Positions 2,118 to 8,662 of a stretch of 13,800 nucleotides of DNA are shown in pieces. Origin of the DNA: a virus; the UHGV virus genome UHGV-0225830; one strand, given 5' to 3'. How positions within the stretch are numbered: position 1 is the stretch's first letter; each line of letters starts with the position of its first letter. The notes under the pieces were generated by a model. It had not been told where the DNA came from and made no database searches. It worked only from the letters and a program-made list of their open reading frames with translations. Both the position numbers and the translations under genes were made by a program.

Positions 2118-2162
2118 CTCAGATATATATTACCTAGGGGAGAGTGAAATTTACGTTCACTC
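2117..2162 (+). promoter_or_regulatory. Copy 1 of a repeated promoter-like element plus 5'-leader hairpin
   Basis: 20-nt TCAGATATATATTACCTAGG (2119-2138) is identical to 5653-5672; then GAGAGT conserved; then a 7-bp hairpin GAGTGAA (2142-2148) / TTCACTC (2156-2162). ATG of the next gene (2191) is 53 nt after the 20-mer. Confidence 0.5.
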
Positions 2163-2190
2163 CATTAGTTATAGCCTAAAGGAGGATTAG

Positions 2191-3042
2191 ATGTATCACC
2201 CGTATTATCTCCCGCACATTCTAGCAAATAGGGACCCCGGTTATTACTACGAACAAACAAAGGGATCTTTTAATCGACTTTACATTCGTGAATTTAATAC
2301 CGACGAAATGACTGATGACCAGTATCTGGAGTATCTAAAAGACCTTTACGGTTTTTCAAAATCGAATAAAGGTGACTTTGGACGTTCCGCAGTCATTAGG
2401 GTTGGTGAATATCGTCATTTGGCTAAGCCTGTTACTTACCCTATTATTACACGCGCTTATACATCGGATAGGCAATATATTGCTGAACTAAAATTTCCTT
2501 TACGGATAGACGGGCCCCAAATTAGCGCTATAGAAGTAGAGATTCAACCAATTGCTGAAGACTATATTGAAGACTACTTCAAGAAAGCTAAAGACGTACT
2601 CGACGAGGGTTTAAGTTACTCCGAAGAAGGAACGATTTGTCTTCTCTCGTTACTCACGAAGACTTACGTCACAGCAAATTTCCGTATCTCCGATTCCAGT
2701 AACTACAATACACTTACCCCCTCTAAGACAAAACCTGTTTATTGGGACGATCGGCTAGTCGACAGACAACGCTGGCTTACTATCTTAGATAGAGTAAAAT
2801 TCGAACCCCCTAAACACACCGAAGACGATTTTATTTTATTGCACAACTTCGAACCAATTTATATTCCAACGCATTTTGATCAAGCCTTACGTCATCGGTT
2901 GAAGTATGTGTTGGAATTACGGTACGGAAAGATAAACGGACTAACCTGTTCCGGTGAATTGGGTGAAGAAGAACGCGAGAAGATAAAAATCGTGTTTGAT
3001 AAGTTGGTTGAAGATTACATTAAGAAGGAAGGGCAATTATGA
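2191..3042 (+). CDS. hypothetical protein (283 aa)
   Basis: ATG 2191 preceded by AAAGGAGG (2178-2185); stop overlaps the next start (ATGA at 3039-3042); acidic, no recognised motif. Confidence 0.75.
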   Translation: MYHPYYLPHILANRDPGYYYEQTKGSFNRLYIREFNTDEMTDDQYLEYLKDLYGFSKSNKGDFGRSAVIRVGEYRHLAKPVTYPIITRAYTSDRQYIAELKFPLRIDGPQISAIEVEIQPIAEDYIEDYFKKAKDVLDEGLSYSEEGTICLLSLLTKTYVTANFRISDSSNYNTLTPSKTKPVYWDDRLVDRQRWLTILDRVKFEPPKHTEDDFILLHNFEPIYIPTHFDQALRHRLKYVLELRYGKINGLTCSGELGEEEREKIKIVFDKLVEDYIKKEGQL

Positions 3043-3482
3043 AACCAAATACTACTAACGGCATTATGCTACTTTGTGATTCTGAAACGTTAGCAAACCG
3101 TATTCGTGGTTTGATGCAAGTACGTTGGCAGCAAAAGGTTCTCGTCGACTATGCTGCCCCGTTTGTTCACATTACCTGGTTGCCAGAAGCTAGTGATTTC
3201 AAAGAACGTATAACCACGAGAAGAATTAAAGAATGGTTATCGGCAATCATTAATAAACAGATTACCGTTATCAATTTCCAACTTTTCGGTACCGCTGAAG
3301 AACATGAAATCTTGAAACAGTGTTTAAGAGACTTGGGTCTTTCCTCTTCTGTTCGTGGTAGCTGCTATACGGCTTACTTTATCGGTTCGCTTGAACTGTT
3401 TAAGAATACGCTAATGCTTCAGCTAAAAGACGACTACAAACTTTTAGATAAAATCGATTTCGAATTCCCAGGCATGATTTAA
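3039..3482 (+). CDS. hypothetical protein (147 aa)
   Basis: ATG 3039 overlaps the upstream stop; SD-like GGAAGGG upstream; no recognised domain (a single H-x-T-x at residue 44 only, see rejected). Confidence 0.7.
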   Translation: MKPNTTNGIMLLCDSETLANRIRGLMQVRWQQKVLVDYAAPFVHITWLPEASDFKERITTRRIKEWLSAIINKQITVINFQLFGTAEEHEILKQCLRDLGLSSSVRGSCYTAYFIGSLELFKNTLMLQLKDDYKLLDKIDFEFPGMI

Positions 3483-3528
3483 GGAATCATAGCTTAATCA
3501 CCCCACCATTTACCTAAAGGAGCATTAA

Positions 3529-4044
3529 ATGTCAGTAAATATTAACATGAATCTTTATACTAAACGTGAACGTCAGATTCTGGCGAATCAACCTGGTGTT
3601 ACGACTATCGACGGTAAACCTATTGACCGTTTAAAAGTTATCGTTGCGCGAAATTGTCATGAACACGATTGGGACATTACCTACTTCCGTTGTTGTTCGG
3701 TCGCAAATGCGCTTACTCAACTCTCTAACTACCACTCAGGACCGCTATTAAAAGACTGGGTTTGGTTAGTGCCAAGAACACCCACAGCAATTGAGTATCC
3801 CTCTGGACTAGTTTATATTCGACCTGTCGCTTATCCAGAGCGTCTGAAAGAGTATCTTGAAGTTATCTGGAACCGTCCTCGTAAAGAGCTGGTGACGATT
3901 ATTAATTTACTGCAGCAGATCGAAATCCCCGGCGTTTCGAATTTGAAACTCACGTCTCGCGATATTAACCAGGCTTACTGGGAACTGGAGTGGACAGAAC
4001 CGAAATTCGAAAACACTAACCGTATTTTCTTGCACCGGGGGTAA
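3529..4044 (+). CDS. hypothetical protein (171 aa)
   Basis: ATG 3529 preceded by the extended SD ATTTACCTAAAGGAG (3508-3522), identical to 8641-8655. Confidence 0.75.
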   Translation: MSVNINMNLYTKRERQILANQPGVTTIDGKPIDRLKVIVARNCHEHDWDITYFRCCSVANALTQLSNYHSGPLLKDWVWLVPRTPTAIEYPSGLVYIRPVAYPERLKEYLEVIWNRPRKELVTIINLLQQIEIPGVSNLKLTSRDINQAYWELEWTEPKFENTNRIFLHRG

Positions 4045-4046
4045 AA

Positions 4047-7038: not shown

Positions 7039-7438
7039 TTACATCCGTCAGTACCCAGCCAGTATTCCTGTACTGGCTTCGCTTACGCTTTCAGGTACTG
7101 ACGTTAACATTTTAACGGTGGAGCAGTTCCACGAGATAATAAAAACCGCCTATAACTCCATTACCGCAACGTCAGTACGTAAACGTTGCGATTATCCAGA
7201 CGGGGATTTCGGCACCGAGATGTTTACAGATTATGCGGTTGCGTTTCTGTTAGGGCGACACTGCCTCGATAAACTTAACACTGCTGTAGAAGGGGAAACA
7301 GTGACGGAAATTGTCAATGCTTGGCAGCAACGTATTCTGAACGACCCTTACTGCCGCCAAGCGTTGAAACGAATGTCCACAACGGCGATTACAAACGACC
7401 AGCGTGCTTTAGAGTTCTTTAAGCACAATTACAGCTAA
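7010..7438 (+). CDS. family B protein (142 aa), paralog of 8663-9094
   Basis: ATG 7010 preceded by AAAAGGG (6996-7002). Aligns with the 8663 protein: LN.D.R.YIR..P, YP.G..G..M, DP, MS.T in the same order. Confidence 0.75.
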   Translation: MKTLNSDLRDYIRQYPASIPVLASLTLSGTDVNILTVEQFHEIIKTAYNSITATSVRKRCDYPDGDFGTEMFTDYAVAFLLGRHCLDKLNTAVEGETVTEIVNAWQQRILNDPYCRQALKRMSTTAITNDQRALEFFKHNYS

Positions 7439-7459
7439 TTTACCAAAAGGAAAAATGAC

Positions 7460-8593
7460 ATGTTTAATATCGAAATTACCCCGCTCGTTAAAACTGAAAT
7501 CCGTCCGGTTCCTGAAGCACAGTTACTCGATCAACTTTATCGCATATTCCTGGATAAAGGTGTACATTTCCGTGTAGAGCAGGTCAACGATGAAAGCATC
7601 GTATTCTACTGGACTCACTGCAACGATTATCTTTGCGACACTATCGCGAAAGAAATCGGTGAGTTGCTCAACCCAGCAGAAGGTACCACGAACGCCTGGG
7701 TAGAATCGACCGAGACTGAACAACCGAAAGTCGAGGTTGAAAAACAAGAGTGGCCTATAAACAACGGCAACAAACCGTATTCCCTCTGGTACGACGGCAG
7801 GAAGGGTAAGGAAATTAAAGAAACGTTAAGGGCCCTCTATCCTGACTTTTTAAACTTTTATTGGGATGGTGACAAGATCATCGTTCAAATGAAGAATTTC
7901 GATCAAAAGATTATAGAAGAAATTCGTTCTATCGCTGAGCTGATCGATAACGACGCCGTTCGCCTTATTTCGGTTCGCGATATCGGAAAAGAAGATGCAG
8001 ATGATATCATGCGTGGTGCTGTTCACGAACACAAAGAGAAAATTCGTGGGTCTAATTATGTTGACGGTACTCTAACTGTGCTTGTTGATAATGATCCTGT
8101 CGTTATTAAATGGTTCGAAGAACCGTATTCCTTTACTTACACTGGCGCAGAGGCCGAAGCGATTAATGATACCTTGACAGCTTTCTATCCTACCAAAGTA
8201 GAGACTAAACTCGAGGGCGAAAAACTCACCATTAAATGGAAATGGTGGGACGCTGCTCTTGACGAAGAAATTAGCAACCTCATTAATGAGATCGTTGACA
8301 ATCGTCTACGTCTTCTGACAATCACTGCTATTGGGAAAGAAGATGCCGATACGTTTATGCGTGATATCACTCGTTGGTTTCCTGAGAAAGTCCGTCAGTG
8401 GACTTACACAGACAATACACTTACCATTCTGCTCAACTATGAACCCGGTATTATTGGAAAGTTAAAAACCCATCTGAGTGACTTGCGGTCAGTTCGTTTT
8501 CTTAAGGATAATGAGCACACGATCGACGCGCTCTTTAGAGAAATATCTTCTGGCGTAGTCTGCGTTTGTCCTGCTTGTCAGAAGCATCGCTAA
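7460..8593 (+). CDS. hypothetical acidic protein (377 aa) with an internal tandem duplication and a C-terminal CxCxxC cluster
   Basis: ATG 7460 preceded by AAAGGA (7446-7451); residues 107-213 and 223-329 align (YS..Y, TL.A.YP, IGKEDAD, MR, EK.R, TLT.L.N..P); C-terminus VCVCPACQKHR. Confidence 0.8.
   Translation: MFNIEITPLVKTEIRPVPEAQLLDQLYRIFLDKGVHFRVEQVNDESIVFYWTHCNDYLCDTIAKEIGELLNPAEGTTNAWVESTETEQPKVEVEKQEWPINNGNKPYSLWYDGRKGKEIKETLRALYPDFLNFYWDGDKIIVQMKNFDQKIIEEIRSIAELIDNDAVRLISVRDIGKEDADDIMRGAVHEHKEKIRGSNYVDGTLTVLVDNDPVVIKWFEEPYSFTYTGAEAEAINDTLTAFYPTKVETKLEGEKLTIKWKWWDAALDEEISNLINEIVDNRLRLLTITAIGKEDADTFMRDITRWFPEKVRQWTYTDNTLTILLNYEPGIIGKLKTHLSDLRSVRFLKDNEHTIDALFREISSGVVCVCPACQKHR
7778..8446 (+). 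repeat. Intragenic tandem duplication (two units of about 107 codons, each with an IGKEDAD motif)
   Basis: Units at about 7778-8098 and 8126-8446 within the 7460-8593 gene. Confidence 0.7.
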
Positions 8594-8610
8594 TTAACTA
8601 AATTCGTACA

Positions 8611-8645
8611 AGGGGTGGTAAACCATCCCTCTATTATTGTATTTA
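8611..8645 (+). terminator. Possible terminator or RNA stability hairpin
   Basis: Stem AGGGGTGG (8611-8618) / CCATCCCT (8623-8630) with one G-U pair, loop TAAA, followed by interrupted T-rich CTATTATTGTATTT; weaker than the other terminators. Confidence 0.4.
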
Positions 8646-8662
8646 CCTAAAGGAGTATTAAA

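What the first reader, a model, noticed from the sequence alone, without database searches (positions are those of the whole stretch)
2131..8655. Related TTACCTA-RR-GGAG cores shared by the promoter-like element and two identical extended ribosome-binding sites
The 3' half of the repeated element (TTACCTAGGGGAG at 2131-2143; TTACCTAGGTGAG at 5665-5677) resembles the 15-nt identical extended SD ATTTACCTAAAGGAG found before the genes at 3529 and 8663 (3508-3522, 8641-8655), and ATAGCCTAAAGGAGG before 2191. Sequence conserved beyond the SD itself suggests a shared recognition site, for example for an RNA-binding translational regulator or a sequence-specific endoribonuclease, or recent shuffling of gene-start cassettes.
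Basis: seen in the sequence. Interest (0 to 1): 0.45.

Follow-up and report, generated by a model that had tools for sequence, protein, structure and literature searches.

The report
Early promoter and consensus ribosome-binding site
The shared TTACCTA..GGAG string links two different, ordinary signals of a giant SPN3US-like phage, namely its virion-RNA-polymerase early promoter and its preferred strong ribosome-binding site, and the likeness between them is no more than chance would give.

Summary
The sequences exist. The two promoter copies lie 1 nt to the left of the reported coordinates. They belong to two separate signals.

(1) CAGATATATATTAC-CTAGGK-GAG (2120-2142, 5654-5676) is the multi-copy early promoter of SPN3US-like jumbo phages. 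It has the same TATATTAC-N6-G core as phiKZ early promoters.

(2) ATTTACCTAAAGGAG-N-ATTAAA-ATG (3508-3531, 8641-8665) is this lineage's consensus translation-initiation region.
- YCT(A/T)AAGGAG-YATT(T)AAA-ATG is the commonest strong Shine-Dalgarno context in SPN3US and in the window's relatives.
- The exact CCTAAAGGAG-N-ATTAA-ATG string occurs in over 120 viral contig stretches.
- At the orthologous site of gene 3529, CCT, the SD and CATTAA persist down to 46% protein identity, but TTAC does not.

The cassettes score 75-100 bits below true promoters. Their 14-bit match to the promoter's 3' half arises by chance in about 15% of simulated windows.

What is real:
- conservation beyond the SD;
- three near-identical cassette copies per genome;
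- a family-wide "leader box" upstream of the SD in early leaders, of unknown function.

No RegB homologue, Rfam family or conserved RNA fold was found.

The parts
2077..2115 (+). Intrinsic terminator. A 13-bp stem (AGGTAGTAGGGGC-TTA-GCCCCTACTACCT) is followed by a T-run. It ends the tail-fibre module just upstream of promoter P1.
   Evidence: Terminator scan. Conserved in relatives L016 and L023.
2100..2142 (+). Early (virion RNA polymerase type) promoter P1. A/T-rich upstream tract, then core CAGATATATATTAC (2120-2133), spacer CTAGGG (2134-2139), and predicted start G2140 (GAG = +1 to +3).
   Evidence: Exact 19-mer repeat. The 17-mer is multi-copy in SPN3US, Erwinia phage Caitlin and other contigs of about 220-260 kb. 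Family matrix score 46.7 bits, against -1.6 for the next best position in the window. Same TATATTAC-N6-G core as phiKZ: 7 copies on + and 0 on - in its first 50 kb, all in intergenic regions. The position of the start follows PMC5312081.
2140..2163 (+). 5'-terminal stem-loop of the predicted TU1 transcript. GAGTGAA (2142-2148) pairs with TTCACTC (2156-2162), and G2140 pairs with C2163.
   Evidence: In 31 of 47 distinct family promoter copies the minimum-energy hairpin starts exactly at the predicted +1, with different stem sequences. The figure is 25% for control 34-mers beginning GAGA.
2171..2193 (+). Translation-initiation region of gene 2191: ATAG-CCTAAAGGAGG-ATTAG-ATG.
   Evidence: It reads CCGAAAGGAGG in the 95%-identical relative L016.
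3508..3531 (+). Cassette 1: ATTTA-CCTAAAGGAG-C-ATTAA-ATG, the translation-initiation region of gene 3529 (ortholog of SPN3US gp139).
   Evidence: At the orthologous sites CCT, the SD and CATTAA are kept in 6 genomes, while TTTAC varies.
5634..5676 (+). Early promoter P2: TTTTTAATAAAAATATTTTCAGATATATATTAC-CTAGGT-GAG. Predicted start G5674.
   Evidence: Matrix score 61.8 bits, the best in the window. Conserved in L016, L073 and L021.
5674..5691 (+). 5'-terminal stem-loop of the predicted TU2 transcript: GAGAGT-tcagtt-ACTCTC.
   Evidence: The ortholog in L073 has a different loop and one stem difference (GAGAGTacaaaaGCTCTC).
7438..7462 (+). Weaker cassette variant: ATTTACCAAAAGGAA-AAATGAC-ATG, before gene 7460.
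   Evidence: Conserved in L016, L073 and L021.
8611..8640 (+). Terminator-like hairpin (AGGGGTGG-taaa-CCATCCCT) followed by CTATTATTGT. It lies between gene 7460 and cassette 2.
   Evidence: The loop and one arm position differ between relatives while pairing is kept.
8641..8665 (+). Cassette 2: ATTTA-CCTAAAGGAG-T-ATTAAA-ATG, the translation-initiation region of gene 8663. This gene is a paralog of gene 7010 and a homolog of SPN3US gp131.
   Evidence: Invariant in 5 clade genomes except at the N position.
9101..9128 (+). Intrinsic terminator after gene 8663. Gene 8663 is therefore flanked by terminators on both sides.

Best explanation
Two unrelated expression signals happen to share a short string.

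(A) The repeated element is the early promoter used by the virion-packaged multisubunit RNA polymerase of SPN3US-like (phiKZ-related) jumbo phages.
- Its layout is an A/T-rich upstream tract, CAGATATATATTAC, a 6-nt spacer CTAGGK, then G(+1)AG.
- Transcription is inferred to start at G2140 and G5674.
By analogy with other 5' hairpins, this probably protects the early mRNA.
- The promoters drive two early operons, 2191-5641 and 5723-8593(-9094). These lie in a conserved island of small early genes between the tail-fibre genes and the DUF7941 structural array.

(B) ATTTACCTAAAGGAG-N-ATTAAA-ATG is the lineage's optimal translation-initiation region.
- It consists of a pyrimidine-rich 5' flank (YCT), the SD AAGGAG, a 6-7 nt A/U-rich weakly structured spacer, and AUG.
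- It is used where ribosomes must load de novo, that is after terminators or real intergenic gaps, rather than by translational coupling.
- That the YCT flank contacts ribosomal protein S1 is an inference, not a result.
- The extra ATTTA is the local remnant of a family-wide 'leader box'. It is AATCGACYATTA(N)YCTWAAGGAG in SPN3US and AATCGACCATTTAACCTAAAGGA in an intermediate relative.
- Its identity in three copies per genome is best explained by common descent or gene conversion between gene starts.

The TTACCTA overlap between A and B is coincidental.

Shown: motif distributions, orthology, hairpin covariation and the statistics. Inferred: the transcription start, the polymerase assignment, the role of the hairpin and the role of the 5' flank.
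For: Promoter:
- The 17-mer occurs several times per genome in SPN3US, Caitlin and other 220-260 kb contigs.
- SPN3US holds about 7 class A and about 10 class B copies, all on the + strand. Most sit in gaps just upstream of annotated genes; at least one class B match (25226) falls inside an annotated CDS.
- The matrix separates the 2 window sites (62 and 47 bits) from everything else (at most -1.6 bits).
- phiKZ carries the same TATATTAC-N6-G motif, strand-specific and intergenic.
- 35 of 47 copies read GAG at that position, and the hairpin starts there in 31 of 47, against 25% in controls.
- Class A leaders are uniformly 44-64 nt.
- The island is syntenic with SPN3US gp141-gp129.

Translation-initiation region:
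- In SPN3US, CTTAAGGA, AAGGAGTA and GGAGTATT are the top 8-mers upstream of starts.
- CT[TA] precedes AAGGAG at 14 of 42 starts (p=2e-11). CTWAAGGAG is enriched at genes with an upstream gap of at least 25 nt (12 of 109 against 3 of 120, p=0.014).
- In the clade, CTA precedes AAGGAG at 6 of 14 starts (p=3e-8).
- A further clade gene, an RNA polymerase subunit, uses ATCAA-CCTAAAGGAGCATTAAAATG without TTTA.
- More than 120 viral stretches carry CCTAAAGGAGNATTAA(N)ATG.
- Orthologs of cassette 1 keep CCT, the SD and CATTAA but not TTAC.

Coincidence:
- Cassettes score -38 and -27 bits on the full promoter matrix.
- A 3'-half score of 14 bits arises in 15% of simulated windows.
- No SPN3US gene start carries TTAC[CT]TA next to its SD; the only upstream-region match, at gene 9012, does not abut an SD.
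Against: - No transcript or ribosome data exist for this phage or for SPN3US promoters. The start sites, the polymerase assignment and the early timing rest on homology of the motif with phiKZ and AR9.
- Three cassette copies share TTTA upstream of CCT. My rough estimate is about 5e-5 if the copies were independent. Sites 2 and 3 keep it in every clade genome, so some constraint on TTTACC cannot be excluded.
- Two cassette genes (8663 and the third-locus gene) lie between two terminator-like hairpins, with only 10-15 nt between hairpin and cassette. Their promoter is not identified.
- Two SPN3US leader boxes read CTATTAC(C/T)C, which again resembles the promoter core.
- Why YCT is favoured 5' of the SD is unexplained, because it cannot pair with the 16S 3' end.
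- Only about 60 kb of the roughly 220-kb clade genome could be sampled.
Confidence: 0.72

Rival explanations
1. The cassette or leader box is an RNA recognition site for a phage-encoded post-transcriptional regulator. This could be a RegA-like translational repressor or a RegB-like endoribonuclease that cuts in GGAG, acting on a defined set of early mRNAs.
For: - Conservation extends well beyond the SD, at a fixed distance from the start codon.
- In SPN3US, CGAYYATTA occurs 9 times on + and once on -, with 7 of the + copies 26-28 nt before annotated starts.
- The box follows the 5' hairpin in class A early leaders across SPN3US, Erwinia-phage and clade loci.
- GGAGTATTAAA matches 9 of 11 positions of the T4 RegB/S1 target GGAGRAYARAA (PMC1702504).
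Against: - tblastn with T4 RegB finds nothing in SPN3US, the window or the family loci held here (best E=1.2).
- The box sequence drifts strongly between lineages (GACTATCAAGGA in Erwinia phages, ATCGACTATTAATCTAAAGGAG in SPN3US, heterogeneous in the clade), while the promoter stays identical.
- Cassette 2 lacks the CGAC half.
- The 3' part is a generic TIR found in many viral contigs, most outside this phage family.
- No conserved RNA structure was seen.
Confidence: 0.12
2. The cassettes are promoter-derived DNA signals. They would be either decayed early promoters or weak secondary (middle, non-virion polymerase) promoters that start at the G of GGAG. The TTAC-N6-GAG register they share with the early promoter would then be homologous and functional.
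For: - The register is exact: TTAC, six nt, then GAG. The 3'-half matrix score is the best in the window after the true promoters.
- Genes 8663 and the third-locus gene are flanked by terminators and lack any other candidate promoter.
- Their SPN3US homologs gp131 and gp082 do carry an early promoter upstream of the box.
- Tandem early and middle promoters are known in phiKZ (PMC8244752).
Against: - The upstream half, which holds most of the information, is absent. Full scores are 75-100 bits below real promoters.
- In AR9, one mismatch in the AT-rich element abolishes early promoter use (PMC5312081).
- A start at that G would leave a 9-10 nt leader beginning GAG with no intact SD, yet the SD-to-ATG spacing is a canonical 6-7 nt.
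- TTAC is lost at orthologous sites.
- The family's candidate late promoter is a different, TATG-type block.
Confidence: 0.06
3. The 21-of-22 identity of the three cassettes comes from recombination or gene conversion between gene starts, that is modular shuffling of short regulatory cassettes as proposed for T4-type PeSL elements. It would not come from independent selection towards one optimum. This can coexist with the main explanation.
For: - Three copies per genome are identical up to the ATG and back to TTTA. The SPN3US counterparts of two of them are much less alike.
- Close relatives differ in gene content within this island. Gene 2191 is deleted in contig 078609, and an extra gene lies before cassette 1 in two contigs. 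The window keeps an orphan AAGGAA at that place.
Against: - All three sites are orthologous to SPN3US sites that already carry a similar TIR, so the cassettes were not newly inserted.
- 21 nt is short for homologous exchange.
- Selection for one optimal TIR could produce the same pattern.
Confidence: 0.3

Closest known systems
Early (virion RNA polymerase) promoters of phiKZ-related jumbo phages (phiKZ; AR9 AAATATATATTAT-N6-G)
   Same: - AT-rich conserved element ending in TATATTAC or TATATTAT, with G seven nt later.
- Multi-copy and strand-specific.
- Placed in gaps upstream of operons of small genes of unknown function (PMC5312081; PMC7598289).
   Different: - The SPN3US-type element is longer. 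It adds CAGA on the 5' side, a conserved CTAGGT spacer and GAG at the start.
- It is followed by a 5' stem-loop that begins at +1. This was not seen in 6 of the 7 phiKZ copies inspected.
- No start site has been mapped experimentally for this lineage, as far as the papers searched show.
Canonical Shine-Dalgarno translation-initiation regions with A/U-rich spacers and 5' enhancers (my own knowledge: S1-binding pyrimidine- or U-rich tracts; the T7 gene 10 leader)
   Same: AAGGAG lies 6-7 nt before ATG, with an A/U-rich spacer, low predicted structure and a pyrimidine-rich 5' flank.
   Different: The 5' flank has a specific preference (YCT then A or T) that cannot pair with the 16S 3' end. In early leaders there is also a longer lineage-specific box.
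T4 RegB/S1 cleavage sites (GGAGRAYARAA) in early-gene SDs
   Same: GGAG in the SDs of early genes is followed by an A-rich stretch. The cassette matches 9 of 11 positions (PMC1702504).
   Different: No RegB homolog was detected. Positions 5 and 8 deviate. The conserved part here lies 5' of GGAG, whereas RegB/S1 reads the 3' side.
T4-type PeSL (promoter-early stem-loop) mobile regulatory cassettes (Arbiol et al. 2010; from memory, not re-read)
   Same: Short modules of promoter plus stem-loop bracket small early genes in a hyperplastic region whose gene content differs between close relatives.
   Different: The promoter here is of the phage-polymerase type, not sigma-70. No sigma-70 enrichment was found. 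Mobility of the modules has not been demonstrated.

Membership tests
phiKZ-type virion-RNAP early promoter | Highly conserved AT-rich element of about 10 nt (TATATTAC or TATATTAT type) | tested here: met
   ATATATATTAC lies at 2123-2133 and 5657-5667. TATATTAC occurs 7 times on + and 0 on - in phiKZ 1-50 kb, all intergenic. The AR9 consensus is given in PMC5312081.
phiKZ-type virion-RNAP early promoter | Transcription start (G) 6 nt downstream of the element | tested here: inconclusive
   The sequence fits. G is at that position in both window copies, and 35 of 47 family copies read GAG there. No transcript data exist to confirm the start.
phiKZ-type virion-RNAP early promoter | Multi-copy, co-oriented with the genes, in gaps upstream of early operons | tested here: met
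   All copies are on the coding strand. In SPN3US the class A copies lie 44-64 nt before the first start codon.
phiKZ-type virion-RNAP early promoter | The phage encodes virion and non-virion multisubunit RNA polymerases | not testable with these tools
   The window holds no polymerase gene. The relative SPN3US has several genes annotated as RNA polymerase beta subunits. A clade contig has a homolog behind a class B promoter.
phiKZ-type virion-RNAP early promoter | Early transcription that is independent of host RNA polymerase and of protein synthesis | not testable with these tools
   This needs infection experiments.
Shine-Dalgarno translation-initiation region | Purine-rich core complementary to the 16S 3' end, 5-9 nt before a start codon that opens a conserved ORF | tested here: met
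   AAGGAG lies 6 nt before the ATG at 3529 and 7 nt before the ATG at 8663. The ORFs are 171 and 143 aa, with homologs in SPN3US and in PHROGs.
T4 RegB/S1 target site | 11-nt single-stranded GGAGRAYARAA | tested here: inconclusive
   GGAG(C/T)ATTAAA matches 9 of 11 positions. Positions 5 and 8 deviate (PMC1702504). Predicted unpaired probability is 0.5-0.7.
T4 RegB/S1 target site | A RegB endoribonuclease is encoded by the phage | tested here: not met
   tblastn with T4 RegB against SPN3US, the window and 42 family loci gave a best E of 1.2. Sensitivity is limited to sequence similarity, and only part of the clade genome was covered.
PeSL-type mobile regulatory cassette | Sigma-70 early promoter plus adjacent stem-loop that flanks variable ORFs | tested here: not met
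   Sigma-70-like sites are not enriched (27 found against 25.3 expected). The promoter is of the phage-polymerase type. Stem-loops and gene-content variation are present.
Known RNA families (Rfam 15) | A match to any curated covariance model | tested here: not met
   The only hit was sraA at E=0.82, far below its gathering score.

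The most novel reading that the evidence does not exclude
The 'leader box' and its local form may be a dedicated control site for a subset of early genes. The box is AATCGACYATTA(N)YCTWAAGGAG in SPN3US, with ATTTACCTAAAGGAG as the form seen in this window. It sits at a fixed distance before start codons, often directly after a 5' or terminator-like hairpin. It could be bound or cut by an unidentified phage factor that times early-protein synthesis, or it could act as a second-class promoter giving dual early and middle expression. 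Its TATTAC-like core might then echo the early promoter because the same protein reads both.
Probability: 0.12. Interest if true: 0.55.

Novelty: new member of a known kind. Interest (0 to 1): 0.25.

Why it matters
The result gives a concrete, testable layout for early transcription units in SPN3US-like nucleus-forming phages: promoter, predicted +1, a 5' stem-loop that covaries between copies, a leader of about 50 nt, and a consensus ribosome-binding site. This is useful for annotating such genomes, designing reporters or antisense knock-downs, and predicting which orphan genes are early. It also shows that identical 'extended' ribosome-binding sites in a phage need no special regulator to explain them. 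The leader box and the YCT preference remain small open questions.

Tried and rejected
- **No close genome in the phage collection.** tblastn with the products of genes 2191 and 7460 found nothing. Only the gp38-like end and the structural genes match.
- **Source contig not on record.** Exact-protein look-ups for two window proteins failed, so the window could not be extended.
- **Two collection scans hit the 120-row limit with mostly unrelated hits.** ATTTACCTAAAGGAG returned one clade locus, L073; ATATATATTACNTAGG gave little.
- **Literature.** Full-text searches for TATATTAC or for SPN3US promoter motifs found nothing specific. Ceyssens 2014 is not held, so the phiKZ motif was read from the genome instead.
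- **Host sigma-70 promoters.** Not enriched. In the cassette, TTTACC as a -35 and TATTAA as a -10 would have the wrong spacing.
- **Rfam.** Nothing found.
- **Conserved RNA fold or SD sequestration at the cassettes.** None seen. TTTACC is complementary to GGTAAA in the loop of the 8611 hairpin, but that is not kept in relatives.
- **RegB homolog.** None found.
- **Upstream-gene stop codon as the source of TAA in CT(T/A)AAGGAG.** This held for 1 of 4 SPN3US cases checked by hand, so it was rejected as a general cause.
- **Decayed promoter upstream of the 8611 hairpin.** Only 9 of 23 matches, with the wrong geometry. Rejected.
- **Gene function.** Pfam and PHROGs give no function for the island's genes.

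Full report
**What the window is.**
The DUF7941 structural proteins at 9265-10603 are about 44-46% identical to those of Salmonella phage SPN3US and of Erwinia jumbo phages. The window is therefore a fragment of an SPN3US-like, phiKZ-related jumbo phage.
- The phage collection holds no close genome.
- IMG/VR holds four relatives of 150-225 kb, 76-97% identical over this region.
- Genes 2191-9094 form an island of small genes of unknown function. The island lies between the tail-fibre genes and the DUF7941 array.
- The island is syntenic with SPN3US gp141-gp129. Gene 3529 corresponds to gp139 (46% aa), 4761 to gp135, and 8663 and 7010 to gp131.

**Checking the observation.**
All the strings are present on the + strand. 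The two promoter copies are at 2130-2142 and 5664-5676, 1 nt left of the reported coordinates. The other coordinates are right.
- TTACCTARRGGAG with up to 1 mismatch gives 4 hits against 0.04 expected.
- The two 'extended SDs' are identical over 21 of 22 nt, ATTTACCTAAAGGAG-N-ATTAAA, and end at the ATG.
- A weaker copy precedes gene 7460.

**The repeated element is the family's early promoter.**
- GATATATATTACCTAGG occurs several times per genome in SPN3US, Erwinia phage Caitlin and other contigs of about 220-260 kb.
- In the complete SPN3US genome there are about 7 copies of CAGATATATATTACYTAGGTGAG. A second class, CAGATAGATATTATCTnnnnGAG, has about 10 copies. All lie on the coding strand, and most sit in gaps before genes.
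- Promoter P1 of the window is orthologous to a class B copy in SPN3US. The two share the leader hairpin TGAAATTTACGTT.
- Reviews state that every RNA-polymerase-encoding jumbo phage has such an AT-rich motif upstream of its early operons. The transcription start lies 6 nt downstream in phiKZ and phiR1-37. In AR9 the consensus is AAATATATATTAT-N6-G (PMC7598289, PMC5312081).
- I confirmed the motif in phiKZ itself. TATATTAC occurs 7 times on + and 0 on - in the first 50 kb, always intergenic and always with G seven nt later.
- A matrix built from 44 family copies scores the two window sites at 61.8 and 46.7 bits. The next best position scores -1.6.

**What the promoter's 'GGAG' is.**
By that rule the starts are G2140 and G5674.
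- 35 of 47 distinct family copies read GAG at this position.
- In 31 of 47 the minimum-energy hairpin of the first 34 nt begins exactly at +1, and in 6 more at +3.
- The stems differ in sequence (GAGATTAC/GTAATCTC, GAGAGTT/AACTCTC, GAGCGTTA/TAACGCT, GATAGA/TCTATC). Pairing is kept through changes on both sides.
- Only 25% of control 34-mers beginning GAGA pair their first base.
- The promoter's GKGAG is therefore -2 to +3, the 5' arm of a leader stem-loop. It is not an SD.
- The true SDs of the first genes lie about 35-45 nt further on. Class A leaders are 44-64 nt long.

**The cassettes are the lineage's consensus translation-initiation region.**
- In SPN3US, with 264 annotated starts, the commonest 8-mers in -25 to -1 are TTAAGGAG, CTTAAGGA, AAGGAGTA, AGGAGTAT and GGAGTATT.
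- CT[TA] directly precedes AAGGAG at 14 of 42 starts, against a 3.2% background (p=2e-11). TATT is by far the commonest continuation.
- CTWAAGGAG is enriched where the upstream gap is at least 25 nt (12 of 109 against 3 of 120, p=0.014). This fits sites where ribosomes load de novo.
- In the roughly 60 kb of clade DNA that could be fetched, CTA precedes AAGGAG at 6 of 14 distinct starts (p=3e-8). Counting the cassette once gives 4 of 12 (p=2e-5).
- An RNA-polymerase-subunit gene in one clade genome uses ATCAA-CCTAAAGGAGCATTAAAATG, without TTTA.
Most of those hits lie outside the window's relatives.

**Orthologous sites.**
The sequences before the orthologs of gene 3529 are:
- ...CCATTTA-CCTAAAGGAGCATTAA-ATG (window and two contigs);
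- ...CCATCTA-CCTAAAGGAGCATTAA-ATG;
- ...GTAAATC-CCTAAAGGAGCATTAA-ATG;
- ...CACATC-CCTGAAGGAGCATTACC-GTG (57% aa identity);
- ...TTAAAT-CCTAAGGAGCATTAA-GTG (SPN3US, 46% aa identity).

CCT, the SD and CATTAA are held. The TTAC that creates the resemblance to the promoter is not.

**Is the resemblance more than chance?**
- On the full matrix the cassettes score -38 and -27 bits, because the information-rich upstream half is missing.
- On the 3' half alone they score 14 bits, the best in the window after the promoters.
- At least 14 bits appears in 15% of Markov-simulated windows. It also appears at four non-promoter places in SPN3US.
- The two copies are one sequence type, and GAG is favoured at an SD anyway.
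- No SPN3US gene start carries TTAC[CT]TA next to its SD; the single upstream-region match, at gene 9012, does not abut one.
- I conclude that the overlap is coincidental.

**What remains unusual.**
1. The 21-mer TTTACCTAAAGGAGNATTAAA occurs three times per clade genome. It precedes gene 3529, gene 8663 and a 158-aa gene orthologous to SPN3US gp082. The last two copies sit 10-15 nt after terminator-like hairpins. Both genes are also followed by terminators.
2. SPN3US has a longer 'leader box', AATCGACYATTA(N)YCTWAAGGAG, 26-29 nt before seven start codons (gp210, 200, 165, 131, 082, 017, 015). Four of these follow a class A promoter and hairpin.
   - Erwinia-phage relatives have GACTATCAAGGA in the same place.
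   - An intermediate relative has AATCGACCATTTAACCTAAAGGA. This links the box to the window's CCATTTACCTAAAGGAG.
   - The cassettes before gene 8663 and the third gene sit at the positions of the gp131 and gp082 boxes.
   - The ATTTA of the cassette is therefore best read as the local remnant of this box. The within-genome identity of the three copies then reflects common descent or gene conversion, in an island whose gene content varies between close relatives.

**Rivals.**
- A RegB-like nuclease or RegA-like repressor cannot be excluded. However, T4 RegB has no homolog in SPN3US or in the family DNA held here. The box drifts between lineages while the promoter does not. No conserved fold or Rfam family is present.
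- A promoter function for the cassettes is unlikely. The AT-rich element is missing, and in AR9 one mismatch abolishes promoter use (PMC5312081). A start at GAG would leave a 9-10 nt leader with no intact SD, although the SD-to-ATG spacing is canonical. The family's likely late promoter is a different, TATG-containing block.

**Verdict.**
The finding joins two ordinary signals. One is a phiKZ-type early promoter, new only as a lineage-specific member with a 5' stem-loop at +1. The other is a consensus ribosome-binding site. Interest is low. The leader box and the YCT preference are the only open points.

Noticed in passing
window 9199-9264: A candidate late (non-virion polymerase) promoter. 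The block cTATGCTGGCtGaGGGaT (TATG at 9201-9204) lies about 61 nt upstream of the first DUF7941 gene, just after terminator 9101-9128. Directly before the ATG at 9265 is an SD-less 11-mer, GAGTTAACGCG. Both are conserved in SPN3US, three Erwinia-phage loci and all clade contigs. phiKZ late promoters are TATG with G as the start (PMC7598289).
   Followed up: partly
window 1-846: The 3' end of an ORF (1-326) is 87-93% identical at nucleotide level to gp38 tail-fibre adhesin genes of Krischvirus and other T-even-like coliphages. The next ORF (343-846) has the Gp38_N domain. A T-even-type adhesin module inside a chimallivirus-like jumbo phage suggests recent exchange of host-range determinants.
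   Followed up: no
SPN3US (L273-L277), e.g. 4426, 15613, 28968, 72485, 72683, 109892, 161918, 191601: A second promoter class, CAGATAGATATTATCTnnnnGAG, sits beside the TATATATTAC class. One copy precedes an RNA polymerase subunit gene with a leader of only 26 nt. In the window's clade the orthologous site is followed by the CCTAAAGGAGCATTAAAATG TIR.
   Followed up: partly
SPN3US 165687-165780 and 167520-167621; L152 5040-5105: GC-rich, terminator-like hairpins with T-runs lie inside early 5' leaders, between the promoter or 5' hairpin and the leader box. Many class A 5' hairpins are themselves followed by TTTT. This recalls the conditional 5'-UTR terminators reported for phiKZ (PMC10914365).
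   Followed up: no
window 2175-3007 and 3483-3507, compared with L023, L279 and L281: Gene-content differences among relatives that are about 90-97% identical. Gene 2191 is deleted in contig 078609, which fuses the P1 leader to gene 3039. An extra gene of about 270 aa sits between 3039 and 3529 in two contigs. The window keeps only that gene's orphan AAGGAA at 3481-3486.
   Followed up: partly
window 7010-7438 and 8663-9094; 5723-6217; 7460-8593: Genes 7010 and 8663 are paralogs (34% aa, both in phrog_8484). The products of genes 5723 and 7460 contain internal tandem repeats. This was seen in the translations and not analysed.
   Followed up: no
window 4333-4357: A conserved GC-rich hairpin, CTCTCCCTCGG-gaaca-CCGAGGGAGA, lies inside operon 1, and its 3' arm runs into the SD of the next gene. 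The loop differs in the relative L023 (ttttc) while the stem is kept.
   Followed up: no
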